DNA of 64,000 nucleotides, taken from assembly GCA_038327685.1 (NCBI GenBank), contig JBBQLH010000002.1, positions 11,147 through 75,146 of the forward strand, read 5' to 3'. The first letter of the stretch is position 1. The number at the start of each line of letters is the position of its first letter. The translations under genes were made by a program, and so were the position numbers. The notes under the pieces are model-generated. The model did not search any database, was not told the origin of the DNA, and was given only the letters and a program-made list of their open reading frames with translations. Origin of the DNA: Solirubrobacterales bacterium. GTDB taxonomy: Bacteria > Actinomycetota > Thermoleophilia > Solirubrobacterales > Solirubrobacteraceae. This document shows positions 16,224 through 58,497 of this stretch, in pieces.

Positions 16224-16259
16224 CGCCGCCGCAGGGTACTCCAATACCCTCAGCGCGCC

Positions 16260-25348: not shown

Positions 25349-25355
25349 CTGAGGG

Positions 25356-25580
25356 ATGAACGTGCTCCGACATGACACCGCGACGGTCCTGCTGTTCCGG
25401 GACTCTGCATTGCGCAGGCCGATCGACGTCGTCGCGTGGATGAACACGGATGGGCGGCAGACGAGCGAAGCCGCCGACGGCCGCGACAACGTCATCCCGC
25501 TCGGGCGGTTCGCCCGCGCGGCACGCCGCCCAGGTTCCCAGACATGGTCCGACGTGCCCCCGGACGGCGAGGCGGCCTGA
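25356..25580 (+). CDS. hypothetical small protein coupled to an atypical LuxR regulator
   Basis: 74 aa, GC3-rich. Stop overlaps the next ATG. Confidence 0.4.
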   Translation: MNVLRHDTATVLLFRDSALRRPIDVVAWMNTDGRQTSEAADGRDNVIPLGRFARAARRPGSQTWSDVPPDGEAA

Positions 25581-26263: not shown

Positions 26264-26306
26264 GTCGCCAGATGAGAACCGAAAGCACACGGAAGGGCGG
26301 GAAAGC

Positions 26307-28093: not shown

Positions 28094-28236
28094 CTAACGG
28101 ACGGGGGCCGCGTGCGCGTTCGCCGCGCCCGCCGTCCGGCGGTGGAAAAACGGCCCGGCGGCACGTTTCGCCGTGACCTGGGGCGCGATCGCCCGAAGTT
28201 CACGGCCCGCCGCTCCGTTGGTTGTGGGATCGATCG

Positions 28237-28992
28237 ATGAGCAGCGCACTCCCCAATTCCCTCCCGTCTCGCCGGCTCGTAGCGGCGCCGGCGCGCGACG
28301 TCGCCGTCGTCATGGCCGACTCCTCCTGCCGCGAGGCCGTCGGCTCGCTGCTCGCGGGCGCCGTCCGGCAGTGGGCGGGGACCATCGCCACGCGGGGCAT
28401 CTGCGACCTCGCAGATGACTGCCCCGACGCGGTCGTGCTGGTGGCGGACTTCGCGGTGCCGGCCGGCATGGCCGCATTGCGCCGCATCCGCAGCGATGTC
28501 CCCGCCGCCCGCGTCGTCGTCGTCGCGCGCGACGACAGGAGCGCCACCGCGCGCCAGGCGCTCAACGCGGGCGCCGACGCCTTCGTGCGGGCGGACGAGG
28601 TCGACCAGGCGCTCGCGCCTGCGCTCGATGCGGTCATGGCAGGGCTCGTCTGCGCTCCGCGCGCCGCGCGGCGCCTGATCGCAAAGCCGACGTTCTCCCA
28701 TCGCGAGAAGGAAGTCCTCGAGCTGCTGGTGCCGGGGCTGACCAATCGGCAGATCGCGGCTCGACTGTACCTCGCGGAGAGCACCGTCAAGAGCCATCTC
28801 GCGTCGGCCTTCGCGAAGCTCGGCGTGCGGTCTCGCAGCGATGCCGTCGCGTTGCTGCTCGATCCGGCCGAGGGGCTGGCGACGACTGCACTGCCGCCGG
28901 GCGCAACCTCGCAGGGAAGCGCTCCGTCCGTTGTCGGTCTACGGAAGTCCGGTCGTCCCGGCGCCGTTGATCGACCAGGGTGCGAAACCTGA
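28237..28992 (+). CDS. LuxR-family regulator with atypical receiver domain
   Basis: REC-like N-terminus (VMADSS, VLVADF) and LuxR HTH FSHREKEVLELLVPGLTNRQIAARLYLAESTVKSHL. Alternative TTG start at 28222. Confidence 0.75.
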   Translation: MSSALPNSLPSRRLVAAPARDVAVVMADSSCREAVGSLLAGAVRQWAGTIATRGICDLADDCPDAVVLVADFAVPAGMAALRRIRSDVPAARVVVVARDDRSATARQALNAGADAFVRADEVDQALAPALDAVMAGLVCAPRAARRLIAKPTFSHREKEVLELLVPGLTNRQIAARLYLAESTVKSHLASAFAKLGVRSRSDAVALLLDPAEGLATTALPPGATSQGSAPSVVGLRKSGRPGAVDRPGCET

Positions 28993-29014: not shown

Positions 29015-29881
29015 ATGAGCGTGGCCCAAGCGGTCCGGGTGGCCCCCATCACCGACGGCGACGTGCGCCGGTCGGCGGAGTTCCTGCATGCGCAGCTGAA
29101 CACGCGCGTATCCGTCGATGACTGGTCGCGCGCGGTCGACGTGCCGTGGGCGGTCGAGAAGCCGAACGCCGGATTCATGCTGCTCGACGGCGACGAGGTG
29201 GTCGGCGTTCAACTCGCGTTCTACTCGGAGCGCATCCTGAACGGCAGCCGCGAGCGCTTCTGCAACCTCGGCGCCTGGTGCGTGTTGCCGCGCTATCGCT
29301 TCCACGGGCTGCGGCTGCTGCGGGCGGTGCTGCGCCAGGACGGCTACCACTTCACGGACCTGTCGCCGAGCGGGAACGTCGTCGGCGTCAACGAGAAGTT
29401 GAGCTTTCGCTTTCTCGACACGACGACCGCGCTCGTCCCCAACCTCCCTTGGCCGACCTTGCCCGGCCGCGGTCGCATCATCTCCGACCCCGAGCTGATC
29501 GAGCGCACGCTCACCGGTGCCGAACTCGATCTCTATAGGGACCACGCGGCCACGAGTGCTCGCCACGTGGTGCTGGCCCGTGGCGACGAGTGGTGCTACG
29601 TCATCTTCCGCCGCGACAGGCGCAAGGGGCTGCCGCTGTTCGCGAGCGTCCTCTATGTGAGCAACCCGGCCCTCTTCCGGGCGATGGCACCTCGCTTCGC
29701 GCGCCACCTGCTGATCCACCACCACGCCCTGGCCACGCTGGCAGAGGAGCGAATCGTCGCCTACCGGCCGCGGCCTTCGTACCGGCTCCGGTCACCGCGG
29801 CGAAAGATGTTCCGCAGCCCCAGCCTTGCGCCCGCGCAGATCGACGATCTCTACAGCGAGCTGGTCTGCGTCTCGTGGTGA
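29015..29881 (+). CDS. two-domain GNAT-fold acyltransferase-like protein
   Basis: N-terminal half has a GNAT-like core (GVQLAFYSER...WCVLPRYRFHGLRLL). The C-terminal half is unassigned. Lies immediately upstream of the ligase. Confidence 0.5.
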   Translation: MSVAQAVRVAPITDGDVRRSAEFLHAQLNTRVSVDDWSRAVDVPWAVEKPNAGFMLLDGDEVVGVQLAFYSERILNGSRERFCNLGAWCVLPRYRFHGLRLLRAVLRQDGYHFTDLSPSGNVVGVNEKLSFRFLDTTTALVPNLPWPTLPGRGRIISDPELIERTLTGAELDLYRDHAATSARHVVLARGDEWCYVIFRRDRRKGLPLFASVLYVSNPALFRAMAPRFARHLLIHHHALATLAEERIVAYRPRPSYRLRSPRRKMFRSPSLAPAQIDDLYSELVCVSW

Positions 29882-29899
29882 GCCCCGAAGGATCAACTC

Positions 29900-29905
29900 A
29901 GGAGG
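29900..29905 (+). promoter_or_regulatory. Shine-Dalgarno AGGAGG for the acyl-CoA ligase gene
   Basis: AGGAGG lies 5 nt upstream of the ATG at 29911. Confidence 0.7.
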
Positions 29906-29910
29906 TGGAC

Positions 29911-31482
29911 ATGGCAATGCGAACGCAGCTGCACCAGATCGTCGCCCAGATGGCGGCGAAGCGGCCCGACGCGCCGTCGCTGACGATCAAGGACACGACC
30001 CTGAGCTACAGCGAGCTCTGGGACGAGGCGCGCGCGTTCGCCGCCGGGTTGGCCCGCATCGGGCTCGGTCGCAGCGAGCGCGTTGCCATCTACCTCGACA
30101 AGCAGATCGAGACGGTGGCGTCCGTGTTCGGTACCTCGGCGGCCGGCGGCGCATTCGTCCCGGTCAACCCGCTGCTGCGCCCCCAGCAGGTCGGCTACAT
30201 CCTCGACGACTGCAGCGTCCGAGTGCTCGTGACGTCGGCGGAGCGGCTCGAGACGCTCGGCGACGAGCTCGAGCGGTGCGCATCGATCGAGCACGTGATC
30301 GTGGTGGCCGGAGGGCGCAAGCCCTCCGGGGAGCGGGTGTACGCCGTCCACTCGTGGGACGACTTCCTGGACACGGCCGACGCGCCCGAGCCCAACCTGA
30401 TCGACCTCGACATGGCGGCCATCTTCTACACGTCGGGCAGCACGGGGAAGCCCAAGGGCGTCGTCCTCTCCCACCGCAACCTGATCGTCGGCGGCGAGAG
30501 CGTCAGCCACTATCTGGGCAACCACGAGGACGATTGCATTCTCGCGGCCCTGCCGCTCAGCTTCGACGCCGGGTTCAGCCAGCTGACGACCGGGTTCACG
30601 GTCGGGGCCCACGTCGTGCTGGTCAACTACCTGCTGCCGCGTGAGGTGGTGGGGCTCTGCGCCGAGCACCGGGTCACCGGTCTCACGTGCGTGCCGCCGC
30701 TGTGGCTCCAGCTTGCCGACCAGACCTGGCCGGCGGAGGCAATGAGGAGCGTGCGCTACTTCGCCAACACGGGCGGTCGGATGCCGAAGTCGACGCTCGA
30801 CCGGCTGCGCGCGATCTTCCCGCGCGCGAGGCCCTTCCTCATGTACGGGCTCACCGAGGCGTTTCGCTCGACCTACCTCGACCCCGCCGAGGTGGACCGC
30901 CGGCCCGACTCGATCGGCAAGGCGATCCCGAACGCCGAGATCCTCGTGGTGCGCGAGGACGGCTCCCTCTGCGATCCGGACGAGCAGGGCGAGCTGGTCC
31001 ACCGCGGAGCGCTCGTCGCGATGGGCTACTGGAACGATCCGGAGCGGACCGCCGAGCGGTTCAGGCCGGCGCCGAGCCGTGACGGCGCGATCTGCACCAC
31101 CGAGACGGCGGTCTTCTCGGGCGACCTCGTCCGCCGTGACGAGGAAGGGTTCCTGTACTTCGTCGGGCGCAAGGACGAGATGATCAAGACCTCGGGCTAC
31201 CGCGTGAGCCCGACCGAGATCGAGGAGGTCGCATACGGCACCGGACTCGTCGGCGACGCGGTCGCGCTCGGCGCGGACGACGAGCGTCTCGGACAGCACA
31301 TCGTGCTGGCCGTCAGCCCCGCCAACGGCCATGTCGACCCCGATGAGCTGCTGGCGGTCCTGCGCCGCCAGCTTCCGCGGTACATGGTGCCCAAGCACGT
31401 GGTGGTGCGGCCCTCCCTCCCACGTTCGCCGAACAACAAGTTCGACCGCAACCTCCTTCGGCAGGAGCTGGCGGAGCGATGA
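29911..31482 (+). CDS. AMP-forming acyl-CoA/acyl-ACP ligase (adenylate-forming superfamily), resembling exosortase-A-associated ligases
   Basis: AMP-binding motif YTSGSTGKPKGV, GYWNDP, SGDLVRRDEEGFLYFVGRKDEMIKTSGYRVSPTEIE. The N-terminal VAIYLDKQIETV...VPVNPLLRPQQV...VRVLVTSAERL pattern matches my memory of the PEP-CTERM-associated ligase family. Confidence 0.85.
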   Translation: MAMRTQLHQIVAQMAAKRPDAPSLTIKDTTLSYSELWDEARAFAAGLARIGLGRSERVAIYLDKQIETVASVFGTSAAGGAFVPVNPLLRPQQVGYILDDCSVRVLVTSAERLETLGDELERCASIEHVIVVAGGRKPSGERVYAVHSWDDFLDTADAPEPNLIDLDMAAIFYTSGSTGKPKGVVLSHRNLIVGGESVSHYLGNHEDDCILAALPLSFDAGFSQLTTGFTVGAHVVLVNYLLPREVVGLCAEHRVTGLTCVPPLWLQLADQTWPAEAMRSVRYFANTGGRMPKSTLDRLRAIFPRARPFLMYGLTEAFRSTYLDPAEVDRRPDSIGKAIPNAEILVVREDGSLCDPDEQGELVHRGALVAMGYWNDPERTAERFRPAPSRDGAICTTETAVFSGDLVRRDEEGFLYFVGRKDEMIKTSGYRVSPTEIEEVAYGTGLVGDAVALGADDERLGQHIVLAVSPANGHVDPDELLAVLRRQLPRYMVPKHVVVRPSLPRSPNNKFDRNLLRQELAER

Positions 31483-32702
31483 CCGACGGACTCGCGACCG
31501 GGGTGGGGCCGGGCGTCTGCCGCGAAGTCGGCGGGGTGCCACTCGACCTTCTCGCCGAGCGTGTCGGATCGACACCGTTCTTCGCCTACGACAGGCACCG
31601 ACTCACCGAACGGGTCGCGTCCCTGAGAGCCGCCCTGCCGGACGATGTCGAGCTCGGCTACGCGATCAAGGCGAACCCGATGCCGGCGGTGGTCCAGCAT
31701 CTGAGCGGACTCGTCGACTCGTTCGACGTCGCCTCGGGCGGAGAGCTCAGGGTGGCGCTCGACACTCCGATGCCGGCCGAGCGGGTCAGCTTCGCCGGCC
31801 CCGGAAAGACGCCCGCCGAGCTGAGCCAGGCGATCGCCGCGGGTGCGACGATCGAGCTCGAGTCCGAGACCGAGGCGGCCCGGGTCGTGGAGGCCGGCGA
31901 GCGGCTCGGGGTCCGGCCGCGGGTCGCCGTCCGCGTCAATCCCGACTTCCGGGTCAAGGGCTCGGGGATGCGGATGGGCGGCGGACCCCAGCAGTTCGGA
32001 GTCGACGCTGAGCGGGTGCCCGCCCTGCTCGCAACCCTCGCGCGGGCCGACCTCGAGCTGCTCGGATTCCACATCTTCGCCGGCTCGCAGAACCTCAATG
32101 CGGAGATCCTCTGCGAGGCGCAGCGGGCGACCGTCGCCCTCGCCTTGCGCCTCGCCGAGGACTGCCCGGCGCCCGTCCGATACCTGAACATCGGCGGCGG
32201 TTTCGGGATCCCCTACTCCGACCGCGACTCGCCGCTCGATCTCGACGCGATCGGCGAGAACCTCGCAGGCCTGATGGCGGATGCGATCCGCCCCAACCTC
32301 CCGGCCGCCCGTGTGGTCGTCGAGCTCGGTCGCTACATCGTCGGCGAGTGCGGGGTCTACGTGACCCGGATCGTCGATCGCAAGGAGTCGCGCGGCAAGC
32401 TGTTCCTGGTCGTCGACGGTGGACTCCACCACCAGCTCGCCGCCTCGGGCAACCTCGGCCAGGTGATCCGCCGCAACTATCCGGTCGCGATCGCAGGCCG
32501 CGCTGCCGACGTGGACACGGAGCAGGTCACCGTCGTCGGCTGCCTGTGCACGCCGCTGGACCTGCTCGCCGACGACGTCGCCCTCCCGCGGGCTGAGATC
32601 GGGGACCTCGTCGTCATCTTCCAGGCGGGCGCGTACGGGCTCACCGCCAGCCCGACGGGCTTCCTCAGCCATCCCGCTCCGGTTGAGGTGCTGGTCTCAT
32701 GA
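31479..32702 (+). CDS. PLP-dependent decarboxylase (Orn/DAP/Arg decarboxylase fold)
   Basis: ATGA coupling to the ligase. PLP-lysine motif YAIKANP, then GGGFGIPY and a C-terminal beta-barrel region. Confidence 0.85.
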   Translation: MTDGLATGVGPGVCREVGGVPLDLLAERVGSTPFFAYDRHRLTERVASLRAALPDDVELGYAIKANPMPAVVQHLSGLVDSFDVASGGELRVALDTPMPAERVSFAGPGKTPAELSQAIAAGATIELESETEAARVVEAGERLGVRPRVAVRVNPDFRVKGSGMRMGGGPQQFGVDAERVPALLATLARADLELLGFHIFAGSQNLNAEILCEAQRATVALALRLAEDCPAPVRYLNIGGGFGIPYSDRDSPLDLDAIGENLAGLMADAIRPNLPAARVVVELGRYIVGECGVYVTRIVDRKESRGKLFLVVDGGLHHQLAASGNLGQVIRRNYPVAIAGRAADVDTEQVTVVGCLCTPLDLLADDVALPRAEIGDLVVIFQAGAYGLTASPTGFLSHPAPVEVLVS

Positions 32703-33865
32703 TGGTGGTGGTGGTTGGGTTGGCGGTGGTGGTCGGGCTTCCGGGGCTGGCGGCTGCGGCGCATCTGGGTGTGCTGGCGGCGGGCTCGGTCTTCTATCGC
32801 CAGCGCCGCTCGGGGGGCGAGGAGGAGATCGCGTTCCTCGTGCTCATCCCTGCCCACAACGAGGAGGTGGTCATCGGCCGCTGCCTCGAGGCCATCCGCG
32901 CGGACCTGCGAGCGCGCGATGTGATGCTGGTCGTCGCCGATCGCTGCAGCGACGCGACAGCGGCGATCGCCCGCCGGTTCGGCGCCCGCGTACTCGAGCG
33001 CGACCCGGACCAGCCGCCCGGTCGCGCAGCCGCCCGCCAAGCCGGCCTGGAACACGCGCGCACGCTGGAATGGGACGCGGTGGTGATGCTCGACGCCGAC
33101 TCGGTGATCGCACCGGGATTCCTCGACGCCTGCCAACAGACCCTCGCCGCCGGCGCCGACGCCGTCCAAGCCCGCAGCGAGAGCACCCGCGGACACACGC
33201 TGGCCAGCGAGGCCTCCCTCGCCGCCTTCGCCCTGCAGGGCATCACCCTTCCCCGCGGCCGCGACCGCCTCGGACTCTCCGTGCGCCTCCGCGGCACCGG
33301 CATGGCGATCCGCCGGCCCCTCGCCCTCGCGCACCGCTTCCGCGCCCCCGCCTCCGAAGATCTCGTCTTCACCCTCGACCTGATCCTGGCCGGCACCCGC
33401 TGCCGACACGTCGACAGCGCCCGCCTGCGCTCCGAGGGCGAAAACCGCTGGAGCACCTTCGGCAGCCAGAAAGTCCGCTACGAAGCCGGACGCATGGCCG
33501 CCGCACGCGCCTACGTCCCACGCCTCCTCAAACGCGCAATCGAGCACCGCGACCCCGCCGCCCTCGAAGCCGCCTGGTTCCTCGCCACCCCCCCATTCGC
33601 GCTCGCCACACTCAGCCTGCTCAGCGCACTCTCCCTCACCACCATCGCCCACGCCTGGACGCTCGCCGCGACCTTCGCCGCCGCGCTGCTCACCCTCACC
33701 CTCGTCATCCTCACCGGCCTCATCCAGGCCCGGGCCCGCCCCCGCACCTGGCTCGCACTGCTCGCCGCCCCCTGGTACCTCGCCTGGAAAACCATCATCC
33801 AACTCCGCGCCCTCGCCAGCGTCCTCCGACGCGACGACTACTACCCACCCACCGCACGCGCCTAG
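32699..33865 (+). CDS. membrane-bound family 2 glycosyltransferase
   Basis: ATGATG overlap with the decarboxylase stop. VLIPAHNEE, MLDADS, GTGMAIRR, SEDLVFTL, and C-terminal TM helices. Confidence 0.85.
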   Translation: MMVVVVGLAVVVGLPGLAAAAHLGVLAAGSVFYRQRRSGGEEEIAFLVLIPAHNEEVVIGRCLEAIRADLRARDVMLVVADRCSDATAAIARRFGARVLERDPDQPPGRAAARQAGLEHARTLEWDAVVMLDADSVIAPGFLDACQQTLAAGADAVQARSESTRGHTLASEASLAAFALQGITLPRGRDRLGLSVRLRGTGMAIRRPLALAHRFRAPASEDLVFTLDLILAGTRCRHVDSARLRSEGENRWSTFGSQKVRYEAGRMAAARAYVPRLLKRAIEHRDPAALEAAWFLATPPFALATLSLLSALSLTTIAHAWTLAATFAAALLTLTLVILTGLIQARARPRTWLALLAAPWYLAWKTIIQLRALASVLRRDDYYPPTARA

Positions 33866-33914
33866 CGCGCCGCGGCCGGACTCGGGACACGGCTATGTGG
33901 GCGCGACTACAGAC

Positions 33915-33921
33915 AAGGAGG
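33915..33921 (+). promoter_or_regulatory. Shine-Dalgarno AAGGAGG
   Basis: Lies 6 nt upstream of the ATG at 33928. Confidence 0.65.
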
Positions 33922-33927
33922 CGGCTG

Positions 33928-34929
33928 ATGGTGACGGCGCTGCCCCTCCTCGTGGCACTCGGATTCGTGGTCGCGGTCGCGCGGCCGGGGACCGATCCGG
34001 CTGTTGAGACGTCAGCCAAGGGGGCTCCCGCCCGCAACGGTCATCGCGCCGAGCTCCGGGCAGCCACGTATTCGCGCGACCGCGCGAGCCGGCCGAGCCC
34101 CGCTCGCAAGGGCTACCGGTTCCCGAACCGCAAGACGACCGGGGTACCGCACGGGTGGGCGCCGCGGCGGACGCGCGCGAGCGACCTCACCGTCACCCGG
34201 GCGGGGACCGTCGTGCGGGACACCCGGTTCACGAACGGGGCCAACATCATCGTCAAGGCCAGGGACGTCACGATCCGGCGCGTCGACATGCAGGGCGGGA
34301 TGGTCACGAACCAGTCGGGGTCGAACTGCGGCACCGGGCTGCTGGTGGAGGACTCGACCTTCGAGCCTGCCAAGGGACAGCCCTACGTCGGCAACGACAG
34401 TCCGGCCATCGGAGAGGGCGGCTACGACGCGAGGCGCGTGGAGATCTGGAAGCGGGGCGAGGGCTTCCGGGCGTCCGACTGCGGGCAGGTCAAAATCACG
34501 GACTCGTTCGCGTACATCGTGGGCGATACTCCCGATTGCGGCCGAGACCTGCACTCGGACGGGGTCCAGGGCTATTTCGCGAAGGGCATGACCCTTCGCA
34601 ACGCGACCCTCATCTTCGGCAACGATTGCGGAACGTCTCCCTACTTCATCGGCTACGGCCCTGGTTATCCGTCCGAGCCGCCGATCAACACCGGCACCTA
34701 CATCGTGGATCGTCTCCTCGTGGCGGGTGGCGGTTATGTGTTCCGCCAGGGCGTCCCCGCCTCCGTGACCGGGCTGCGCATCGTCGACAAGTCGTGGCTG
34801 TATGGACCGATCGACAACGCGTGCCCGGCCATCTCACGGTGGGAGGCCAAGATCGTCAAGGTCGACTCCCACTATCGAATCACGCGCGTGGTCCGCAACC
34901 AGCGTTGCAACACCAACACGAGGGACTAG
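33928..34929 (+). CDS. N-terminally anchored/secreted protein of unknown function, paralog of 38643-39932
   Basis: TM/signal MVTALPLLVALGFVVAVA. Long collinear identity blocks with the downstream paralog. The ORF-track start at 32683 is a shadow extension through the GT2 gene. Confidence 0.7.
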   Translation: MVTALPLLVALGFVVAVARPGTDPAVETSAKGAPARNGHRAELRAATYSRDRASRPSPARKGYRFPNRKTTGVPHGWAPRRTRASDLTVTRAGTVVRDTRFTNGANIIVKARDVTIRRVDMQGGMVTNQSGSNCGTGLLVEDSTFEPAKGQPYVGNDSPAIGEGGYDARRVEIWKRGEGFRASDCGQVKITDSFAYIVGDTPDCGRDLHSDGVQGYFAKGMTLRNATLIFGNDCGTSPYFIGYGPGYPSEPPINTGTYIVDRLLVAGGGYVFRQGVPASVTGLRIVDKSWLYGPIDNACPAISRWEAKIVKVDSHYRITRVVRNQRCNTNTRD

Positions 34930-34955
34930 CTGGAGGAACGAGTCGGCGTCGGCCG

Positions 34956-35231
34956 TCAGCGGGACTTCGCGGCGACGAAAGCCGCCAGGCTCCCGATCGT
35001 CTCGAAGACCTCGGCGGTGACGTCCTCGTCCTCCACCGTGATGCCGAAGCGACGCTCGAGCTCGACGACCAGCTCGAGGACGGCCAGGGAGTCGAGCTCC
35101 GGAATCGAGGTGAGGGACGTCTGCGCGTCCAGGGCGCCGGCGCGATCCTCGATGGCCAACGTCTTGATCACGACGGCCCTGACGTCGGCGACACCGATCG
35201 TCTGGTTCGTGCCCATGGAAGAGGTGCTCAT
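34956..35231 (-). CDS. acyl carrier protein
   Basis: 91 aa. Phosphopantetheine site ELDSLAVLELV and an acidic helix pattern. Confidence 0.85.
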   Translation of the reverse strand: MSTSSMGTNQTIGVADVRAVVIKTLAIEDRAGALDAQTSLTSIPELDSLAVLELVVELERRFGITVEDEDVTAEVFETIGSLAAFVAAKSR

Positions 35232-36686: not shown

Positions 36687-37349
36687 TCACCGCCATTGCT
36701 TGACCCATCGCTTGGCCCTGTCCGCCGGCGACACGGTCTCACCGCAGCCGTTCAACATCCGCGTTATGGACTCCGCCGAGTCGCCCCGGCGCACCGTGTT
36801 GCGTGCGACGAGCCAATCCGTCGAGCTCGCCGTCCCACCATCGCTCGTGTAGACGCGCTTGAACCCCGCACCGCGCAGTGCCCTCAGAGTCCGCCGGTCA
36901 TACGCCCCGAACGGACAAGCGGCCGTGTCGACCGTTGCCTGCGACGCGTCCTCCAAGGCCTGCTTCGCCTGAAGGATCTCGCGATCGATCGCCGGCCGAC
37001 CCAGCCTCCGCCACCGCACGTGATCCATCCCGTGCGACCCGAGCGACATTCCCGCCAGGCGCAGCTCGCGAATGTCGTCCTCGTCGACAAACCCGGGAGT
37101 CCCGAATCGCGCGGGACAGATGAAGAACTGCGCTCGCAGCCCGCGCTGTACCAACTCGGGCAGCGCCTCGGTCACATCGGAGTAGTTGCCGTCATCGAAG
37201 GTCAGGCGCACATCGCCGCGACCGGAGACCGCGTCGAGAATCTCGACGAACTGCTGCCGGTCGACGCAAACGTCCTCCTCGCCGTCAGTCAGCTCGCGCT
37301 TCGGCTTCCCGATGGAGTGGAAGTTCAGCACGATCATGGTGCCCAGCAT
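36687..37349 (-). CDS. polysaccharide deacetylase (NodB/CE4)
   Basis: TFDDGNYSD, SLGSHGMDH, ACPFGAY. ATG at 37349 chosen; the ORF-track start at 37697 overlaps the GT2 gene. Confidence 0.8.
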   Translation of the reverse strand: MLGTMIVLNFHSIGKPKRELTDGEEDVCVDRQQFVEILDAVSGRGDVRLTFDDGNYSDVTEALPELVQRGLRAQFFICPARFGTPGFVDEDDIRELRLAGMSLGSHGMDHVRWRRLGRPAIDREILQAKQALEDASQATVDTAACPFGAYDRRTLRALRGAGFKRVYTSDGGTASSTDWLVARNTVRRGDSAESITRMLNGCGETVSPADRAKRWVKQWR

Positions 37350-37372: not shown

Positions 37373-38359
37373 TCACGGCGTGTGAACCGGGCTCGGCGAT
37401 TTCGAGAGCTCCCTCGGATGCACCGACAAGGGGCTCCACGGCGAGTGCGGAGGGGGCGACAGGCCCAGAAGCGTCCTCAGCGCCGCCCCATGGGCCTCCC
37501 TGCGGCGTCTTCCGAGCTCCCCGCGCCGCGAGCAGACGAACCGAAGCGAGTGCCGCAGGAGAGCGGTTCCGAAGTAGAGCGCGCGATGCGTCCGCGAGAA
37601 GTGCTTGCGCGCGTAGAGGATGCGACTGTGCGCGCTGAGGCTCTCGACGCTCGGCTGGACGCCGACCTTGGCGCCGTAGTGAAGGATCGTCATCCACGGG
37701 AAGTGGCGGATCTCCCAGCCCGCGCTGCTGATCCGCCAGCAGAAGTCGGTCTCCTCGGAGTACATGAAGAAGCGCTCGTCCATGAAGCCCGCACTCTCGA
37801 TCGCCTCACGCCTGGCGAGCATGAACGACCCGCTCGTCCAATCGCACTCGAGCTCGCGGTCATAGGCCCCCGGCTCGAGTTCGCGCTCGCCCAGCCACCG
37901 CGGGCGTCCGGGCAAGCGCTCGGCCGAGAGAGCGTCGCCGAGCGCCCGAAGCGCGTTCGGGAAGCGACGGATCGTCATGTCGAGGCCACCCTCACCGTCC
38001 ACTTGGCGCGCCCCGACCAGCCCGACGCCGGGGCGCTCATCCATGCGCGAGACGAGGTCGCTCAGGCTTCCTTGCAGGATCTCCGTATCCGGATTCAGGA
38101 AGAGCACGTAGCGGGCGTCGCACGTCATGAGACCGCGGTTGTTCGCGTAGGCGAAGCCGCGGTTCTCGCATCCGATCAGCCGAACGTCGCGGAAGTCCGC
38201 GACGATGTCCGCGGTGGCATCTCGCGAGCCGGCGTCGACCACGACCACGTCCGCATGCAGCGATCCCATGTGCTCGAAGACGCTGCGCAGACAGGCCGCG
38301 ACGTAAGGCGCGCTGTTGTATGCGACGACGATGACGGCGAGGTCGTCCAAACCGGTCAA
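37373..38359 (-). CDS. family 2 glycosyltransferase
   Basis: VIVVAYNS, VVVDAGSRD, FLNPDT, MYSEETDFCWR. Confidence 0.85.
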   Translation of the reverse strand: MTGLDDLAVIVVAYNSAPYVAACLRSVFEHMGSLHADVVVVDAGSRDATADIVADFRDVRLIGCENRGFAYANNRGLMTCDARYVLFLNPDTEILQGSLSDLVSRMDERPGVGLVGARQVDGEGGLDMTIRRFPNALRALGDALSAERLPGRPRWLGERELEPGAYDRELECDWTSGSFMLARREAIESAGFMDERFFMYSEETDFCWRISSAGWEIRHFPWMTILHYGAKVGVQPSVESLSAHSRILYARKHFSRTHRALYFGTALLRHSLRFVCSRRGELGRRRREAHGAALRTLLGLSPPPHSPWSPLSVHPRELSKSPSPVHTP

Positions 38360-44888: not shown

Positions 44889-45652
44889 TGCGGGGCGTCG
44901 GGGTCGGGATCCGGGAAGGACTCAAAGCTCCGACGCAGAGTCACCGGGGGTACGAACGCTCCTGTGTCGGCCCGATTCGCTTCATCGATGCGACCGTGTG
45001 CCCACTCCACCCGAAGGGCGCTCAGGGCGTCCAGAATCGACATGGCGACGAAGAGCAGGATCGTGCCCAGAACGAGCACCGCGACCAGCGAGCGGAGCTT
45101 GCCTGACGGCTTCAGCTTCGCGTCATGAGCAGGGACAACCGCTTCCGTCCTGATCCGATAGCGCGTGTCGACCCCACGTACCCGCTGCATCTGGTCGAGC
45201 TCGTTGGTCATCGCCTCGCCGACCAGGTGCGCCGTATCGATGGCTGCGGCCGCACTCGTGCCGGTGCCGGTGATCTGGACGATCGGCGAGCTGAAGCCGA
45301 ACTCGGCGCTCGGTGCGGCCGTGAAGGTCGGGTCAGCCCCCTTCTTGGCGAGGCTGCGGCGATTTTCCTCGCTGCTCACCCTGCTCGTCAACACCTGCAC
45401 CAGTACGGATTGATCCGAGAAACGCGTGTACGGGTTGTCGTCCCCCTTGATGCGGCCGAGCGCCGGGTTGCGCGCGATCTCCGCATCGGTCGGGGGCGGC
45501 GGCGGATTGACCAGGATGTACTTGGCGGACGCCTCGTAGGTCGGCGCCGAGACGGCGACCAGGTAGAACACGCCGGCAAGGACGCAGGCGAAGATCGGAA
45601 ACGTGACGAGCTTGTACTTCCACAACTTTCTTGCGATCAGCAACAGACTCAT
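44864..45652 (-). CDS. Wzz-like polysaccharide co-polymerase / chain-length determinant, no kinase domain
   Basis: N-terminal and C-terminal TM helices flank a periplasmic-type domain. ATGA coupling to wzy. Confidence 0.65.
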   Translation of the reverse strand: MSLLLIARKLWKYKLVTFPIFACVLAGVFYLVAVSAPTYEASAKYILVNPPPPPTDAEIARNPALGRIKGDDNPYTRFSDQSVLVQVLTSRVSSEENRRSLAKKGADPTFTAAPSAEFGFSSPIVQITGTGTSAAAAIDTAHLVGEAMTNELDQMQRVRGVDTRYRIRTEAVVPAHDAKLKPSGKLRSLVAVLVLGTILLFVAMSILDALSALRVEWAHGRIDEANRADTGAFVPPVTLRRSFESFPDPDPDAPQWPREAQR

Positions 45653-47055
45653 GATTGGGCCCTCCCTGGCCGGAACCTGGGTTGTGGGAATTCGATGCCC
45701 CGAGGTGCGAGAGCGGCGGTCGGGAACGTCGTCCGCCCGCGCTCTCGCTCGGCTGCGGCCAGGCGCCAGCAGGCACCGGCCAACCCGATCACCAACGCAT
45801 AGACGTTGGCGAACATCGGAAAAGACAGGGAGTCGAAGGTCAGCGAGCACACGGGCGCGACAAATCCGGCGCCGGCCAGCGCGGCACACAGGATGCGGAG
45901 CTCCGGATTCGTGCTCCGCCTCCGCGCGACGAGCGCGACGAGCGCCGGAACGAGTAGGAAGACGATGAGCGCCAGGACTCCGACCAGGCCAAGCTCCACC
46001 ACGGCGTCCAAGTACTGATTGTCGAAGATGTTCAGTTCATCGGTAGGAAGCCAGGTACCGGGGCCGTGGCCGAGCCATGGGGCGAGCTGCCAGACCTGCT
46101 CGGCCAGCGGATAGTCGTGGGTGCGATACAGGATCGATGAATCGCTGGAGGCCCCGGAGAAGAAACCCGTGAGGGTGCCGAGCAACCCGTGCGCCGACAC
46201 GAATATCCCGGCCAGCGCAATCGGCAGGGCACCCAGAGCAGCCAAGCGCGGCAGCGGCGGCAGGAGCACGACGAGCACGGCGAGCGCCACGATGACCGAA
46301 AGGATCGCCGAGCGCGACACCGAGGTCGCGACGCCGAGGGTGATCAGCGTCAGCGGAGCCCATCGCCTGAACGGGCTCTTGGCCCGGTCATACAGCCCAA
46401 GACAGACCGCCAGGGGAATCAGCATTCCCGCTACGACACCGAGCTCGATGGCACTGATGGCGGTGCCCGCAGAGCGGTTCAAGGATCCGCGGGCCACGAT
46501 GGCGGGATTGTCGTGGTTCACGGTGAACCCGGGCAGCTCGCGCAGGTATTGGGCGAGGTCGAAGCCCATCCAGTACTGCAGCGCGGCGACGAGTCCGCAG
46601 AACGCGCCCCCCCAGCACAACACCCGCACCACCCGCATCGCGTCGTGCAGGGAGCGCAGCCACTCGGAGGCGACCAGCACGACCCCCGTGATCACCGCAA
46701 AGCGGATCAAGACGCGATCGGCGTTGGCGAGCGCCATCCCGGTCAGCCGACCGTGGTCCATGAAGATGTAGGACGCAAGCACGGAGACCCAGATCACGCA
46801 GAGCACGCCCTGGATCGGGCGCGAGTGGCGAGTTGGATCATGGGAACCGAGCAGGACGCTCGTGGCGAATACGCCGAACACGAACACGCCAACCAGCGAG
46901 GCGGGATATCCGGCCGCGCCGACCGGCTTGAACACGGTGTCCGACGGGATCACCATCAACGCAAGCGCGAACAGCTGGAGCATCACGACGCCATTCGGGC
47001 GCGATGACCCCTCGTCGGCGGTTGTGCGGGGATGGGAGAGTGCGGCGGCGTTCAC
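45649..47055 (-). CDS. O-antigen polymerase/ligase family membrane protein (Wzy-like)
   Basis: Polytopic protein of about 12 TM helices with a large loop carrying the SRSAILSVIVAL motif region. Codon usage is visibly less GC-rich. Confidence 0.75.
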   Translation of the reverse strand: MNAAALSHPRTTADEGSSRPNGVVMLQLFALALMVIPSDTVFKPVGAAGYPASLVGVFVFGVFATSVLLGSHDPTRHSRPIQGVLCVIWVSVLASYIFMDHGRLTGMALANADRVLIRFAVITGVVLVASEWLRSLHDAMRVVRVLCWGGAFCGLVAALQYWMGFDLAQYLRELPGFTVNHDNPAIVARGSLNRSAGTAISAIELGVVAGMLIPLAVCLGLYDRAKSPFRRWAPLTLITLGVATSVSRSAILSVIVALAVLVVLLPPLPRLAALGALPIALAGIFVSAHGLLGTLTGFFSGASSDSSILYRTHDYPLAEQVWQLAPWLGHGPGTWLPTDELNIFDNQYLDAVVELGLVGVLALIVFLLVPALVALVARRRSTNPELRILCAALAGAGFVAPVCSLTFDSLSFPMFANVYALVIGLAGACWRLAAAERERGRTTFPTAALAPRGIEFPQPRFRPGRAQS

Positions 47056-47155
47056 TGAGCTCGCCTAACGAACGGCTCGCCGGCATCGAATCTTGTGCGC
47101 GAGGCAAAGCCATGTCTCTTGGAAGCGCAGGGCCCGCGCATCCGTTGAGAGTCGT

Positions 47156-48682
47156 ATGGATCGAACCGAGCACGAAGCTGCCCCGCGCATGGAGCGCCTC
47201 GTCGGTATAGGAATCACGTGGAAGCTGGCGGGCCAGGTCGCGGTGCAGCTCAGTCGCCTGCTCACGGTCGCGGTCTTGGCACGCCTCTTGACCCCGCACG
47301 ACTACGGCGCAGCGGCGATCGCGATCGTGCTCGCGTCGTTCGCGCCGCAGGTGGCCGACATGGGCATCGGGTCCGCTCTCGTACAGGCCGAGACGGCGCC
47401 GCGAGCGGTCCGCTCGACGACGTTCTGGGCATCGGTCGCCTCCGGCGTCGGCCTCTTTCTGATCACGGCGGCCGCGGCTGAGCCGGTGGCGCGGTTCGTG
47501 GGCGAACCGGAGGTCGCCGGGATGGTCGTCGCCGGCGGGCTCACCTTCGCGATCTATTCCCTGGGGTCGGCGAGCCAGGCCGTGTACCTGCGCGAGATGA
47601 GGTTCCGCAGCAGCGAGCTGCGCAACTGGCTCGCACTCCTCGCCGGAGCCGTGGTCGCGATCATCGCAGCGGCCGGCGGAGCGGGGCCCTGGGCTCTGGC
47701 CCTGCAGCAGATCGCATACATGGGCACCCTGGTCGCCGCACTTTGGTTCCGTGCGGGATGGCGCCCGACGCTGGAGTTCTCGCGCCCGGCGTTTCGCGAG
47801 CTGCGCTCGTTCGCGATCCGGATCGCGGGCGGTCGCTGGGCCCGGCTGATCGAGCTGCTCGTCCTCACGCTGCTGATCGGAAAGCTCGCGAGCGTCGCCG
47901 AGCTCGGCGCATGGGCCTTCGGGATGAGCATGGTCGTCCTCCCGCTGAGCCTGATCGCGATCCCGATCGCGGAGGTGCTCTTCTCGGCCTTCTCCCGTCT
48001 CCGCAACGAGCCGGAGCGCATGGCCGCCCTCTGGCTCGACAGCATCGGCTACCTGGCGGCGGTCCTGCTGCCGCTCCTGCTCGGCCTGATGGTCGTCGCC
48101 CCCGATCTGATCCCGACCGTGTTCGGATCGCGCTGGGAGGTCTCGGTCGGCGTCGTGCAGATCCTCAGCGTCTACGTCCTCATCCGCGGCCTTCAGTCGT
48201 GGGGCTCCGTGTACATGGACGCCGTCGGCCGGCCCGAGGTGACGTTCTGGACCCAGCTCGCGTCCCTCTGCCTGACGCCGCTGGCGGTCGTGGTCGGCGT
48301 CCACTGGGGGATCGAGGGGGTCGCGGCATGCTTCGTCGTCTGCCAGATGATCGCGGTCGAGATCCCGATGTTCGTCATCGTCCTCTCCCAGATGCGCGTC
48401 TCACCGCGGACCTTGGCCGGGCGCGTGTCCGGCATCGCCGTCGCCTCGCTCTTGATGACGCTCGCCTGCGTGCTCGGACGCTCGGCGCTCGAGTCGGCCG
48501 GCGTCGGCATGGCCGGGCGCGCCGCCCTGACGATCGCCCTCGGACTCGCCGTCTACGCGCCCGCGCTGTGGTGGCTTGCCCCTCACGTCAGCCGGCGGGT
48601 GTTCGGGATCGGCAGGAGTCGCCTGACGAAGCTGATCGACGCCCGCCGGCGGCGGGCCGTCCTGCAGCCGGAGCACGGATGA
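47156..48682 (+). CDS. Wzx-type polysaccharide flippase (MOP superfamily)
   Basis: Polytopic (about 14 hydrophobic segments by eye). N-terminal WKLAGQVAVQLSRLLTVAVLARLLTPHDYG is typical of Polysacc_synt proteins. Alternative start at 47189. Confidence 0.8.
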   Translation: MDRTEHEAAPRMERLVGIGITWKLAGQVAVQLSRLLTVAVLARLLTPHDYGAAAIAIVLASFAPQVADMGIGSALVQAETAPRAVRSTTFWASVASGVGLFLITAAAAEPVARFVGEPEVAGMVVAGGLTFAIYSLGSASQAVYLREMRFRSSELRNWLALLAGAVVAIIAAAGGAGPWALALQQIAYMGTLVAALWFRAGWRPTLEFSRPAFRELRSFAIRIAGGRWARLIELLVLTLLIGKLASVAELGAWAFGMSMVVLPLSLIAIPIAEVLFSAFSRLRNEPERMAALWLDSIGYLAAVLLPLLLGLMVVAPDLIPTVFGSRWEVSVGVVQILSVYVLIRGLQSWGSVYMDAVGRPEVTFWTQLASLCLTPLAVVVGVHWGIEGVAACFVVCQMIAVEIPMFVIVLSQMRVSPRTLAGRVSGIAVASLLMTLACVLGRSALESAGVGMAGRAALTIALGLAVYAPALWWLAPHVSRRVFGIGRSRLTKLIDARRRRAVLQPEHG

Positions 48683-58187: not shown

Positions 58188-58497
58188 AACCTTCCTGGTC
58201 CCCTCGCCCACGTCGGTGTGGGCGGGTCTGAATGACTAACGGCCAACAAAGCGGTGGACTTGCCGGTGCCCGCCACGCTGGTCCGAATGTCCATCGGAGT
58301 GGAAGGCGCGCCCCGACCGAGGCGGTCGAGCGTCCTGCTCGACCGGTCCGATTCTGAATCGGCGCTCAGGCGGCGACCACTATCCGAACGTCTAGACCCT
58401 CCGGCGGCCGGTCCGAGGTCGAGGTTCAGCGCGCTCCCGAGCGGTCAGGCGCCGAGGGTAGCTCTCCCGCTCGCGCGGGTAGCGTGGCTCGCAACCG

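What the first reader, a model, noticed from the sequence alone, without database searches (positions are those of the whole stretch)
29015..35231. GNAT / acyl-CoA ligase / PLP decarboxylase / ACP set inside a Gram-positive-type Wzx/Wzy locus, with no exosortase in view
A two-domain GNAT-like gene precedes three translationally coupled genes: an AMP-forming ligase (YTSGSTGKPKGV), an Orn/DAP-fold PLP decarboxylase (YAIKANP) and a GT2. A dedicated ACP (ELDSL) sits convergently 5 kb downstream. As I recall, the ligase + decarboxylase + ACP combination is known as a conserved accessory set of proteobacterial PEP-CTERM/exosortase-A EPS loci (TIGR03098/TIGR03099), and its chemistry has never been determined. 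Here it sits in a high-GC actinobacterium-like genome beside a NodB deacetylase (36687-37349). That suggests a pathway in which an amino-acid-like substrate is loaded on the ACP, decarboxylated, and transferred by the GNAT to a de-N-acetylated sugar amine. The decoration itself is unknown.
Basis: partly seen in the sequence, partly recalled or inferred. Interest (0 to 1): 0.72.

Follow-up and report, generated by a model that had tools for sequence, protein, structure and literature searches.

The report
Aminoacyl decoration module for a polysaccharide
A conserved gene set in a soil actinobacterium's surface-polysaccharide locus most likely builds a small amino-acid-derived group on a carrier protein and attaches it to an amino sugar; the same core genes accompany exosortase systems in other bacteria, where their chemistry has apparently never been worked out.

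Summary
The genes are a two-lobed GNAT-fold protein "X" (29015-29881), a ligase (29911-31482), a PLP decarboxylase (31479-32702), a GT2 (32699-33865), an ACP (34956-35231, minus strand) and a cytoplasmic NodB-type deacetylase (36687-37349). They sit in a Wzx/Wzy locus, and the window holds no exosortase marker.

The ligase and decarboxylase pass the curated cut-offs of TIGR03098 and TIGR03099. The decarboxylase's closest solved relative is BtrK, which decarboxylates ACP-tethered glutamate. [quoted passage not shown]

In 80 species-level relatives, X-ligase-decarboxylase-ACP is the commonest layout (60 loci carry X). X co-occurs with sugar-amine-forming enzymes in 50 of those 60, and in 0 of the 20 loci without X. 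The X-less loci place the ACP-ligase-decarboxylase trio beside type I PKS genes or in true XrtA loci.

Best reading: an isoaspartyl-ACP is decarboxylated to beta-alanyl-ACP (or the Glu/GABA equivalent), and X transfers it to a deacetylated amino sugar. This is inferred, not shown. The exosortase-free context is common rather than exceptional, but I found no description of it.

The parts
28222..28992 (+). LuxR/GerE-type regulator immediately upstream of the module
   Evidence: Translation. The identical gene on contig L001 carries PF00196 GerE. A response regulator with a GerE domain also precedes the module in L003/L004.
29015..29881 (+). X: 288-aa two-lobed GNAT-fold protein from an unannotated family; proposed aminoacyl-ACP:amino-sugar N-acyltransferase
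   Evidence: No Pfam or NCBIfam hit. There are 2393 homologues, all named 'hypothetical', and 1477 representatives at the 50% identity level. The AF2 model has pLDDT 75, and Foldseek gives Eis/NMT at prob 1.0. Weak GNAT Pfam hits occur in 22 of 43 members. X lies directly upstream of the ligase in 42 of 54 complete modules.
29911..31482 (+). Adenylating ligase of family TIGR03098; proposed to load an acidic amino acid onto the ACP through its side-chain carboxyl
   Evidence: TIGR03098 at 754 bits (cut-off 592). An AGGAGG box precedes ATG 29911. The pocket region's best solved match is VinN (E 1.6e-15). VinN D230/S299/R331 align to D219/T287/R319, and these residues are invariant in 71 homologues.
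31479..32702 (+). PLP decarboxylase of family TIGR03099; proposed to decarboxylate the ACP-tethered amino acid
   Evidence: TIGR03099 at 582 bits (cut-off 478); lysA at 234 bits, below its 298 cut-off. The best solved relative is BtrK, L-glutamyl-[BtrI ACP] decarboxylase, at 247 bits against 166 for the best DAP decarboxylase. An ATGA overlap joins it to the ligase.
32699..33865 (+). GT2 glycosyltransferase, translationally coupled to the decarboxylase
   Evidence: Glyco_tranf_2_3 and Glycos_transf_2 hits. ATGA overlap. Homologues occur in about 22 related loci.
33895..34929 (+). Secreted protein with no family hit; paralogue of the C-terminal part of 38643-39932
   Evidence: Translation shows an N-terminal hydrophobic segment. 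No Pfam hit. Homologues occur in about 20 related loci, including directly after the decarboxylase in Aureimonas.
34956..35231 (-). Dedicated acyl carrier protein with a DSL phosphopantetheine site
   Evidence: PP-binding at 36 bits. The ELDSL motif is conserved in 65 homologues. An ACP is present in 61 of 80 related loci, usually directly after the decarboxylase.
36687..37349 (-). NodB/CE4-type polysaccharide deacetylase, cytoplasmic; proposed to unmask the acceptor amine
   Evidence: Polysacc_deac_1 at 71 bits. It has TFDDG and H-x-x-x-H motifs and no signal peptide or TM segment. NodB occurs in 41 of 60 loci with X and 0 of 20 without.
37373..38359 (-). Second GT2 glycosyltransferase next to the deacetylase
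   Evidence: Glycos_transf_2 at 80 bits. A homologue sits next to NodB in many related loci.
45649..47055 (-). Wzy-type polymerase / O-antigen ligase family protein (likely start 46983)
   Evidence: Wzy_C hit; start estimate.
47093..48682 (+). Wzx-type flippase (likely start 47156)
   Evidence: Polysacc_synt_3 at 216 bits; start estimate.
56679..58211 (-). Initiating phosphoglycosyl transferase of the locus
   Evidence: Bac_transf at 214 bits.

Best explanation
This is a cytoplasmic tailoring module that puts an omega-aminoacyl group on an amino sugar of the Wzx/Wzy-made polysaccharide.

Proposed steps:
1. The TIGR03098 ligase adenylates the side-chain carboxyl of an acidic amino acid, most likely L-aspartate, and thioesterifies it to the dedicated ACP.
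2. The BtrK-like TIGR03099 decarboxylase removes the alpha-carboxyl of the tethered residue. This gives beta-alanyl-ACP, or 4-aminobutyryl-ACP if the substrate is glutamate.
3. The cytoplasmic NodB-type deacetylase removes the N-acetyl group from a HexNAc of the lipid- or nucleotide-linked precursor.
4. X, a two-lobed GNAT, transfers the aminoacyl group from the ACP to that free amine.
5. The decorated repeat unit is flipped by Wzx and polymerised by Wzy.

What is shown: family membership, closest solved relatives, conserved pocket residues, fold, gene linkage and co-occurrence.

What is inferred: the substrate, the ACP-bound decarboxylation, X's donor and acceptor, and the order of steps.

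ACP + ligase + decarboxylase form a portable donor-making trio. X plus an amine-forming enzyme is the polysaccharide-specific delivery part.
For: Family membership: TIGR03098 and TIGR03099 pass their curated cut-offs, while the generic FadD and LysA models fail theirs.

Decarboxylase: the nearest solved structure is BtrK, an ACP-tethered glutamate decarboxylase (247 bits). The next hit, annotated a probable DAP decarboxylase, scores 166 bits.

Ligase:
- Its substrate-pocket segment matches VinN best of all PDB chains (E 1.6e-15).
- These residues align to D219/T287/R319 here. They are invariant in 71 homologues and in XrtA-type ligases.

Literature precedent: VinN/VinL/VinO and FlvN load an Asp-type acid on a stand-alone ACP and then decarboxylate it (PMC11284099).

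Context of the trio: orthologues at 57-73% identity sit next to type I PKS genes in 14 of the 20 X-less loci. That is the setting in which such starter units are used.

X:
- Two-lobed GNAT fold like the aminoglycoside acetyltransferase Eis.
- The order X-ligase-decarboxylase-ACP on one strand occurs in 42 of 54 complete modules.
- NodB occurs in 41 of 60 X loci against 0 of 20 X-less loci (p = 2e-8).
- NodB, DegT or PIG-L occurs in 50 of 60 against 0 of 20 (p = 8e-12).
- NodB lies directly upstream of X in L002/L007 and L003.

Deacetylase: the window's NodB has its metal-binding and catalytic motifs and no export signal.

XrtA-type loci show the same logic with other parts. They carry a DegT aminotransferase and an Acetyltransf_6 GNAT next to the ACP.

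Background from established knowledge, not tested here: NodB/NodA/NodF and LpxC/LpxD both deacetylate an amino sugar and then N-acylate it from an acyl-ACP.
Against: - There is no biochemical or chemical datum. I found no reported polysaccharide carrying a beta-alanyl or 4-aminobutyryl amide.
- Over its full length the ligase's best PDB hit is a gramicidin synthetase (LgrA) adenylation domain (295 bits), not VinN (207 bits).
- Asp versus Glu, or another dicarboxylic amino acid, is not resolved.
- X shows no detectable sequence relation to the Acetyltransf_6 protein of XrtA loci (hhalign prob 0.3%). The two acyltransferases may therefore not be functional equivalents.
- X's donor could be a CoA thioester rather than the ACP.
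- In this window the ACP and NodB lie on the opposite strand, 2-5 kb from X, not in one operon.
- Ten of the 60 X loci show no amine-forming enzyme within reach, though several of these are short contigs.
- The 80 loci are related species, so the Fisher p-values overstate independence.
Confidence: 0.5

Rival explanations
1. The trio makes the omega-aminoacyl-ACP as proposed, but X does not deliver it to the sugar. X instead caps the free amine of the tethered residue, for example by acetylation from acetyl-CoA. This would parallel the protecting or N-acylation steps in the vicenistatin, butirosin and bolagladin pathways. Another enzyme, such as the membrane Acyl_transf_3 protein at 43647-44888, would then perform the transfer.
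For: In the precedent pathways the amine of the aminoacyl-ACP is N-acylated before transfer. X's nearest structural neighbours are acetyl-CoA-using enzymes. X has a partial R-x-x-G CoA/pantetheine motif.
Against: No second conserved transferase accompanies the module. Acyl_transf_3 homologues occur in only a few related loci. X tracks sugar-amine-forming enzymes and glycosyltransferases, and is absent from the PKS-context loci where a capping step would also be expected.
Confidence: 0.15
2. The aminoacyl group is esterified to sugar hydroxyls, a Dlt-like O-aminoacylation of the polymer. NodB would then serve an unrelated deacetylation.
For: The ligase-plus-carrier logic resembles DltA/DltC (established knowledge). 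The ACP gives a weak hit to the DltC model. An Acyl_transf_3 membrane protein is present in the window.
Against: There are no DltB/DltD-type partners. The decarboxylase has no role in a Dlt-type scheme. Amine-forming enzymes (NodB, DegT, PIG-L) are tightly associated with X. X is cytoplasmic and of the N-acyltransferase fold.
Confidence: 0.1
3. The donor is something else. One option is meso-diaminopimelate or alpha-aminoadipate tethered and decarboxylated to a lysyl- or aminovaleryl-ACP. Another is that the decarboxylase acts on a free amino acid whose amine product the ligase then handles.
For: The decarboxylase belongs to the DAP-decarboxylase fold and still scores 234 bits on lysA. The pocket mapping identifies recognition of an alpha-amino/alpha-carboxyl end, not the chain length.
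Against: The recognition residues sit at the same alignment positions as in Asp-type VinN. The closest solved relative acts on an ACP-bound substrate. The ligase needs a free carboxyl in addition to the recognised alpha-carboxyl, which fits a dicarboxylic amino acid.
Confidence: 0.1
4. The module is unrelated to the polysaccharide. It would make a small molecule or lipid, and its position in the locus is incidental.
For: Close orthologues of the trio serve type I PKS clusters. A distant X homologue lies next to an adenylate-forming enzyme and a halogenase in a Rhizobium plasmid.
Against: A GT2 is translationally coupled to the decarboxylase. Glycosyltransferase homologues occur in 45 of 60 X loci and 0 of 20 X-less loci, and Wzx/Wzy in 37 of 60 X loci. 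The same embedding is seen in Actinomycetota and Rhizobiales.
Confidence: 0.05

Closest known systems
Exosortase A (XrtA/PEP-CTERM) system-associated ligase / decarboxylase / ACP set (TIGR03098, TIGR03099, with hydrolases TIGR03100/TIGR03101)
   Same: The ligase and decarboxylase pass both curated cut-offs. Against hydrolase-bearing loci in Massilia and other Proteobacteria, the ligase is 55-59% identical, the decarboxylase 61-62% and the ACP 47-49%. The pocket motifs are the same.
   Different: The window has no exosortase, PEP-CTERM protein, PrsK/R/T, hydrolase 1/2, DegT or Acetyltransf_6 gene. Instead it has X and a NodB deacetylase, which the XrtA loci lack. The function of the XrtA set is itself unknown.
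Beta-amino-acid starter-unit machinery of macrolactam and lipopeptide pathways (VinN/VinL/VinO, FlvN, BolO/BolC/BolN)
   Same: A stand-alone adenylating enzyme loads an Asp-type acid through its beta-carboxyl onto a stand-alone ACP, and a PLP enzyme then decarboxylates it (PMC11284099, PMC7756342). The VinN recognition triad is conserved. Orthologues of this window's trio lie in type I PKS clusters.
   Different: The sequence relation to VinN is distant (207 bits over the full length). Delivery here would be to a sugar amine in a polysaccharide pathway, not to a PKS or NRPS. No second aminoacyl-protecting ligase and no VinK-type transferase is present.
Butirosin side-chain pathway (BtrI/BtrJ/BtrK/BtrH)
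   Same: BtrK is the closest solved relative of the decarboxylase. From established knowledge, that pathway ends with transfer of an ACP-bound aminoacyl group to an amine of an amino sugar.
   Different: From established knowledge, not tested here: BtrJ is an ATP-grasp enzyme rather than an ANL ligase, BtrH is not a GNAT, and butirosin uses a gamma-glutamyl protecting group. The acceptor there is a small aminoglycoside, not a polysaccharide repeat unit.
NodB/NodA/NodF of Nod-factor synthesis and LpxC/LpxD of lipid A
   Same: The logic is to de-N-acetylate an amino sugar in the cytoplasm and then N-acylate it from an acyl-ACP (established knowledge). The window has a cytoplasmic NodB-family enzyme and a dedicated ACP.
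   Different: The donor would be an amino acid derivative, not a fatty acid. No relation of X to NodA or LpxD was tested or seen, apart from a single LpxD hit at E 0.15 in one family member.
Eis-type and N-myristoyltransferase-type two-lobed GNAT acyltransferases
   Same: These are the best structural matches of X (prob 1.0, TM about 0.5). Eis acylates amines of aminoglycoside sugars (established knowledge).
   Different: Sequence identity is 10-18%. X lacks the third Eis domain. No Pfam model covers X.

Membership tests
TIGR03098 (acyl-CoA ligase, exosortase A system-associated) | Whole-protein score above the curated cut-off (592.35 bits) | tested here: met
   754.4 bits. The next model, NF004837, scores 306 bits and is below its own cut-off.
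TIGR03098 (acyl-CoA ligase, exosortase A system-associated) | Encoded next to a TIGR03099 decarboxylase | tested here: met
   The genes overlap by ATGA at 31479-31482.
TIGR03099 (PLP decarboxylase, exosortase A system-associated) | Score above the curated cut-off (478.45 bits) and not a LysA equivalog | tested here: met
   582.2 bits. lysA TIGR01048 scores 234.4 bits, below its 297.9 cut-off.
XrtA / PEP-CTERM protein-sorting system | Exosortase gene and PEP-CTERM substrates near the EPS genes | tested here: not met
   No multi-TM protein in the 64 kb window is an exosortase. tblastn finds no match to a PEP-CTERM protein. The rest of the genome could not be examined.
XrtA / PEP-CTERM protein-sorting system | Accessory hydrolase 1/2 (TIGR03100/03101) and the PrsK/PrsR/PrsT regulators | tested here: not met
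   tblastn with these proteins from L054 and L088 gives no hit in the window at E <= 0.01. They are present in genuine XrtA loci.
ACP-dependent type III PLP decarboxylases (BtrK / VinO / BolN type) | Closer to BtrK than to DAP, ornithine or arginine decarboxylases, with the PLP lysine motif retained | tested here: met
   BtrK scores 246.7 bits against 165.9 for the next hit. The alignment covers residues 27-405, and the AxKAN motif is present.
ACP-dependent type III PLP decarboxylases (BtrK / VinO / BolN type) | Activity on the carrier-bound, not the free, amino acid | not testable with these tools
   This needs an enzyme assay with aminoacyl-ACP.
VinN-type side-chain-carboxyl adenylating enzymes | Asp230 / Ser299 / Arg331 recognition residues (VinN numbering, PMC7756342) | tested here: met
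   These align to D219 / T287 / R319. They are invariant in 71 homologues. XrtA-type ligases carry Ser or Thr at the middle position.
VinN-type side-chain-carboxyl adenylating enzymes | Close overall sequence relationship | tested here: inconclusive
   VinN is the best PDB match for the pocket segment but only sixth over the full length, at 207 bits against 295 for LgrA.
GNAT superfamily (X) | GNAT fold | tested here: met
   Foldseek gives prob 1.0 to Eis, Eis2 and NMT. Acetyltransf_1 hits occur in 22 of 43 family members and Acetyltransf_9 hits in 12 of 43.
GNAT superfamily (X) | Membership of a curated GNAT family | tested here: not met
   The window protein hits no Pfam or NCBIfam model. 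hhalign against the XrtA-locus Acetyltransf_6 proteins gives prob 0.3%.
CE4 / NodB polysaccharide deacetylases | Polysacc_deac_1 domain with the TFDD and H-x-x-x-H motifs | tested here: met
   71 bits. TFDDG and HGMDH are present, and there is no signal peptide.

The most novel reading that the evidence does not exclude
X founds a new family of carrier-protein-dependent amino-sugar N-acyltransferases, and the TIGR03098/TIGR03099/ACP trio makes beta-alanyl-ACP (or GABA-ACP). Hundreds of Actinomycetota and Rhizobiales would then carry surface polysaccharides with a previously unreported cationic omega-aminoacyl amide. The same assignment would give the first chemical function to the accessory gene set of exosortase A systems.
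Probability: 0.4. Interest if true: 0.75.

Novelty: new variant of a known kind. Interest (0 to 1): 0.6.

Why it matters
TIGR03098 and TIGR03099 have been annotated for years as 'exosortase A system-associated', with no known reaction. I found no paper in the searchable library that mentions them.

This window belongs to a widespread, exosortase-free version of the set. There it is joined to an unannotated GNAT-fold family and a NodB deacetylase.

The homology links to BtrK and VinN turn 'unknown chemistry' into a specific, testable pathway. They also suggest that a natural-product-style carrier-protein route was recruited to decorate polysaccharides.

Because the module also occurs in culturable bacteria, the prediction can be tested directly. 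Examples are S. meliloti Rm41/SM11 pSymB, Mycolicibacterium vaccae, Micromonospora and Actinoplanes.

If correct, it would predict a new charge-modifying decoration of cell-surface polymers in soil and symbiotic bacteria.

Tried and rejected
- Genome scans seeded with X-family alignments failed, because no stretch was conserved enough. I used the decarboxylase alignment instead.
- A 48%-identical decarboxylase hit on the Azoarcus KH32C plasmid lies among formaldehyde/methanopterin-type C1 genes, not in an XrtA locus. I dropped it.
- Literature searches found nothing relevant. They covered exosortase plus ligase/decarboxylase/ACP, TIGR03098/03099, and beta-alanyl or aminobutanoyl polysaccharides.
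- The founding PEP-CTERM paper does not mention these genes. The VinN structure paper is not held, so I took residue roles from PMC7756342.
- I suspected a frameshift at about 35.9 kb between the two LamG-like ORFs. I rejected this because the close relative L002 also has two separate genes of about 240 aa there, and the order of the domain halves does not fit one broken gene.
- I tested whether X is a diverged copy of the XrtA-locus Acetyltransf_6 protein. Profile comparison did not support it.
- I judged a housekeeping LysA role unlikely from the family scores. Without the whole genome I could not check for a second lysA.

Full report
**1. What is there**

The window is about 70% G+C. Third-position GC profiles were therefore used to choose real genes among the many ORFs.

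The finding's interval holds these plus-strand genes:
- X (29015-29881, 288 aa).
- A ligase (29911-31482). Its ATG lies behind an AGGAGG box, 30 nt after X's stop.
- A decarboxylase (31479-32702).
- A GT2 (32699-33865). The decarboxylase and the GT2 each start in an ATGA overlap with the preceding gene.
- A secreted protein with no family hit (33895-34929).

Convergent to these, on the minus strand, lie:
- an ACP (34956-35231);
- two small membrane/LamG-like proteins;
- a NodB-type deacetylase (36687-37349);
- a second GT2 (37373-38359).

The surrounding locus has a UDP-sugar dehydrogenase-like gene, a GT4, an Acyl_transf_3 protein, a Wzz-like protein, Wzy, Wzx, a further GT2 and a Bac_transf initiating transferase.

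The nearest named relative of X comes from a Solirubrobacteraceae MAG. The closest locus comes from a Solirubrobacterales MAG.

**2. Family membership**

The ligase scores 754 bits on TIGR03098 (cut-off 592). The best generic acyl-CoA ligase model scores 306 bits and fails its own cut-off.

The decarboxylase scores 582 bits on TIGR03099 (cut-off 478). It scores only 234 bits on lysA (cut-off 298).

X has no Pfam or NCBIfam hit, yet it belongs to a large, well-conserved family:
- 2393 homologues, with no Pfam domain on record and no name beyond 'hypothetical' among the 120 listed;
- 1477 representatives at the 50% identity level.

An AF2 model (pLDDT 75) matches Eis, Eis2 and N-myristoyltransferases, all two-lobed GNAT enzymes, at probability 1.0. 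Of 43 diverse members, 22 give weak Acetyltransf_1 hits and 12 give weak Acetyltransf_9 hits. The description 'two-domain GNAT-like' is correct.

**3. No exosortase in view**

Every multi-pass membrane protein in the 64 kb is accounted for. They are COX1, COX2, CtaG, Bac_transf, DUF6766, Wzy, Wzx and Acyl_transf_3.

I took proteins from genuine XrtA loci and searched the window with tblastn. The set was hydrolase 1, hydrolase 2, Acetyltransf_6, DegT, PrsK, PrsR, PrsT, the amidotransferase and a PEP-CTERM protein. None gave a hit. The rest of the genome is not available.

**4. What the enzymes resemble**

The decarboxylase's best solved relative is BtrK, deposited as L-glutamyl-[BtrI acyl-carrier protein] decarboxylase. 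It scores 247 bits (E 4e-72), against 166 bits for the next hit, which is annotated as a probable DAP decarboxylase. The alignment covers almost the whole protein.

Over its full length the ligase resembles NRPS adenylation domains. LgrA scores 295 bits and VinN 207 bits. When only the substrate-pocket segment is searched, VinN becomes the best match in the PDB (E 1.6e-15).

VinN loads 3-methyl-aspartate, and weakly aspartate, onto the stand-alone ACP VinL. The PLP enzyme VinO then decarboxylates it. FlvN does the same with aspartate (PMC11284099). [quoted passage not shown] It also states that the activated group is the beta-carboxyl.

Chain positions in the printed alignment are offset by 16 from the paper's numbering. 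With that offset, the three residues align with D219, T287 and R319 of this ligase. These positions are invariant in 71 homologues from related loci. In ligases from hydrolase-bearing XrtA loci the middle one is Ser or Thr.

The whole TIGR03098 family therefore appears to bind one kind of substrate: an amino acid with a free alpha-amino/alpha-carboxyl end and a second carboxyl that is activated.

**5. Comparative context**

*Close relatives.* They repeat the module:
- NodB-X-ligase-decarboxylase-GT2 ... ACP-Wzy in a 1.5 Mb Solirubrobacterales contig.
- GT2 / NodB-X-ligase-decarboxylase-ACP / Wzx / Wzz / Wzy in two metagenome contigs.

*Plasmids.* The module is also on Sinorhizobium meliloti pSymB (27 records, including Rm41, SM11 and RU11/001), on Aureimonas pAU20a and on Rhizobium plasmids. 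There X is 50-57% identical and the decarboxylase 69-73% identical. The setting is glycosyltransferases, a polysaccharide deacetylase and O-antigen ligase-family genes, with an O-antigen translocase as well in Aureimonas. PGAP labels the two enzymes 'exosortase A system-associated', yet no exosortase is annotated nearby.

*Species-representative genomes.* A scan found at least 538 relatives. The best 80 (65-80% identical) are mostly Actinomycetota, plus Rhizobiales. Examples are Micromonospora, Actinoplanes, Amycolatopsis, Mycobacterium, Nocardioides, Microbacterium and Streptomyces.

Local tblastn/blastp on those 80 loci gave these counts:

| Feature | Loci with X (60) | Loci without X (20) | Fisher p |
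|---|---|---|---|
| NodB | 41 | 0 | 2e-8 |
| NodB, DegT or PIG-L | 50 | 0 | 8e-12 |
| Glycosyltransferase homologues | 45 | 0 | 9e-10 |
| Type I PKS ketosynthase | 0 | 14 | 3e-11 |

Further counts:
- An ACP is present in 61 of the 80 loci.
- The order X, ligase, decarboxylase, ACP on one strand occurs in 42 of 54 complete sets.
- Most of the ten X loci with no amine-forming enzyme are short contigs.
- The p-values overstate independence, because the species are related.

*The 20 X-less loci:*
- Fourteen carry type I PKS ketosynthases. Pfam confirmed modular PKS proteins, and ACPs just upstream of the ligase, in Herbidospora and Streptomyces.
- One (L054, Kiloniellaceae) is a true XrtA locus with hydrolase 1, ACP, ligase, decarboxylase, amidotransferase, a PEP-CTERM protein, PrsT and PrsK.
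- One (L053, Microlunatus) has a hexapeptide-repeat transferase next to the trio.

*Further XrtA loci.* Three more were reached through hydrolase 1: L088 from Massilia sp. WF1, plus L089 and L090. The core layout (L088) is decarboxylase and ligase facing DegT aminotransferase, Acetyltransf_6 GNAT, ACP, hydrolase 2 and hydrolase 1. L089 and L090 hold the same gene types in shuffled order, and L090 shows no DegT within 10 kb. The ligase is 55-59% identical to the window's, the decarboxylase 61-62% and the ACP 47-49%. None of the three loci has X or NodB.

**6. Synthesis**

ACP + ligase + decarboxylase form a portable donor-making trio used in three settings:
- Wzx/Wzy polysaccharide loci with X;
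- type I PKS clusters;
- XrtA EPS loci with hydrolases 1/2 and another GNAT.

The PKS setting is where ACP-bound isoaspartyl decarboxylation is an established route to beta-aminoacyl starter units. This supports the same reaction here.

In the polysaccharide setting, X is the only conserved acyltransferase-like partner, and it tracks enzymes that create a free sugar amine. The window's NodB has its catalytic motifs and no export signal. Deacetylation and re-acylation would therefore both be cytoplasmic. From established knowledge, this is the arrangement in NodB/NodA/NodF and in LpxC/LpxD.

I therefore favour the path Asp to isoaspartyl-ACP to beta-alanyl-ACP to N-(beta-alanyl)-hexosamine. Glu/GABA is the main alternative.

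Two inferences favour aspartate:
- The recognition residues sit at the same alignment positions as in Asp-type VinN.
- There is no enzyme for protecting a cyclisation-prone 4-aminobutyryl thioester.

Overall confidence in the full chain is about 0.5. The ligase and decarboxylase steps are better supported than the X step.

**7. Caveats and rivals**

- X could cap the tethered amine rather than deliver it.
- The linkage could be an ester.
- The chain length of the amino acid is open.
- X is not detectably related to the Acetyltransf_6 protein of XrtA loci. The 'same logic, different parts' view of XrtA loci is therefore only an analogy.
- I found no reported polysaccharide with such a group. 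Much carbohydrate-structure literature is outside the searchable library.

**8. Novelty**

The two enzymes are ordinary members of known but uncharacterised families. The exosortase-free context is common, not exceptional.

Three things appear to be new:
- recognition of the five-part module, with an unannotated GNAT-fold family at its head;
- the link of the TIGR03098/03099 pair to VinN- and BtrK-type chemistry;
- the resulting concrete hypothesis for the XrtA accessory genes.

I rate it a new variant of a known kind, with interest 0.6.

Noticed in passing
window 33895-34929 and 38643-39932: Two paralogous secreted proteins share a C-terminal region of about 280 aa with no Pfam hit. The second also has bacterial TSP3 repeats. 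Homologues recur in about 20 related module-bearing loci. In Aureimonas the homologue lies directly after the decarboxylase. They may be a polymer-specific hydrolase or lyase.
   Followed up: partly
window 35233-36027 and 35856-36671 (minus strand): Two small overlapping ORFs lie between the ACP and NodB, each with hydrophobic segments and part of a LamG/concanavalin-like domain. The coding frame changes near 35950. The relative L002 also has two separate genes of about 240 aa here, so this is probably not a frameshift.
   Followed up: partly
window 24600-27050: A run of short plus-strand ORFs in changing frames encodes LuxR/GerE-type regulator-like proteins, followed by a sigma-70 (ECF-like) factor. 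A long antisense ORF overlaps them. Gene boundaries here are uncertain.
   Followed up: no
window 42826-43443: A transposase-like helix-turn-helix fragment with an irregular coding frame sits inside the polysaccharide locus, between the GT4 and the Acyl_transf_3 gene. This hints at past rearrangement.
   Followed up: no
window 50946-56605: A second sugar-modification block was judged by eye from translations only. It contains an epimerase/dehydratase-like gene, a cupin-type epimerase-like gene, a PIG-L/LmbE-like deacetylase (53848-54504), a nucleotidyltransferase-like gene (54504-55367) and a large gene of unknown role (55319-56605). The PIG-L enzyme is a second possible source of a free sugar amine.
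   Followed up: no
L049, L036, L080 (also L033, L040, L041, L045, L048, L050, L059, L060, L064, L078): Orthologues of the decarboxylase (68-73% identical), and usually of the ligase (57-66%), with an upstream ACP confirmed in L049 and L080, sit beside modular type I PKS genes in Herbidospora, Amycolatopsis, Streptomyces and others. In the Amycolatopsis loci no ligase lies within 10 kb of the decarboxylase, and in L036 its ORF is a longer 476 aa.
   Followed up: partly
L053 (Microlunatus lacustris) 7773-12283: Ligase, decarboxylase and ACP are accompanied by a hexapeptide-repeat (left-handed beta-helix) transferase instead of X. This may be another non-orthologous delivery enzyme.
   Followed up: no
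L092 (Rhizobium sp. T1470 plasmid) 9884-17118: A distant X-family member (26% identical) lies in a row with an SDR, a class I adenylate-forming enzyme, a CmlS-like halogenase and an alpha/beta hydrolase. The X family may therefore partner adenylating enzymes in other pathways too.
   Followed up: no
L005 (S. meliloti pSymB): The module is present in 27 S. meliloti pSymB records (Rm41, SM11, RU11/001 and field isolates), so it looks strain-variable. In L005 it lies in a cluster with sulfotransferase, pyruvyl transferase, methyltransferase and 2OG-oxygenase genes. This is a tractable system for testing the chemistry.
   Followed up: partly
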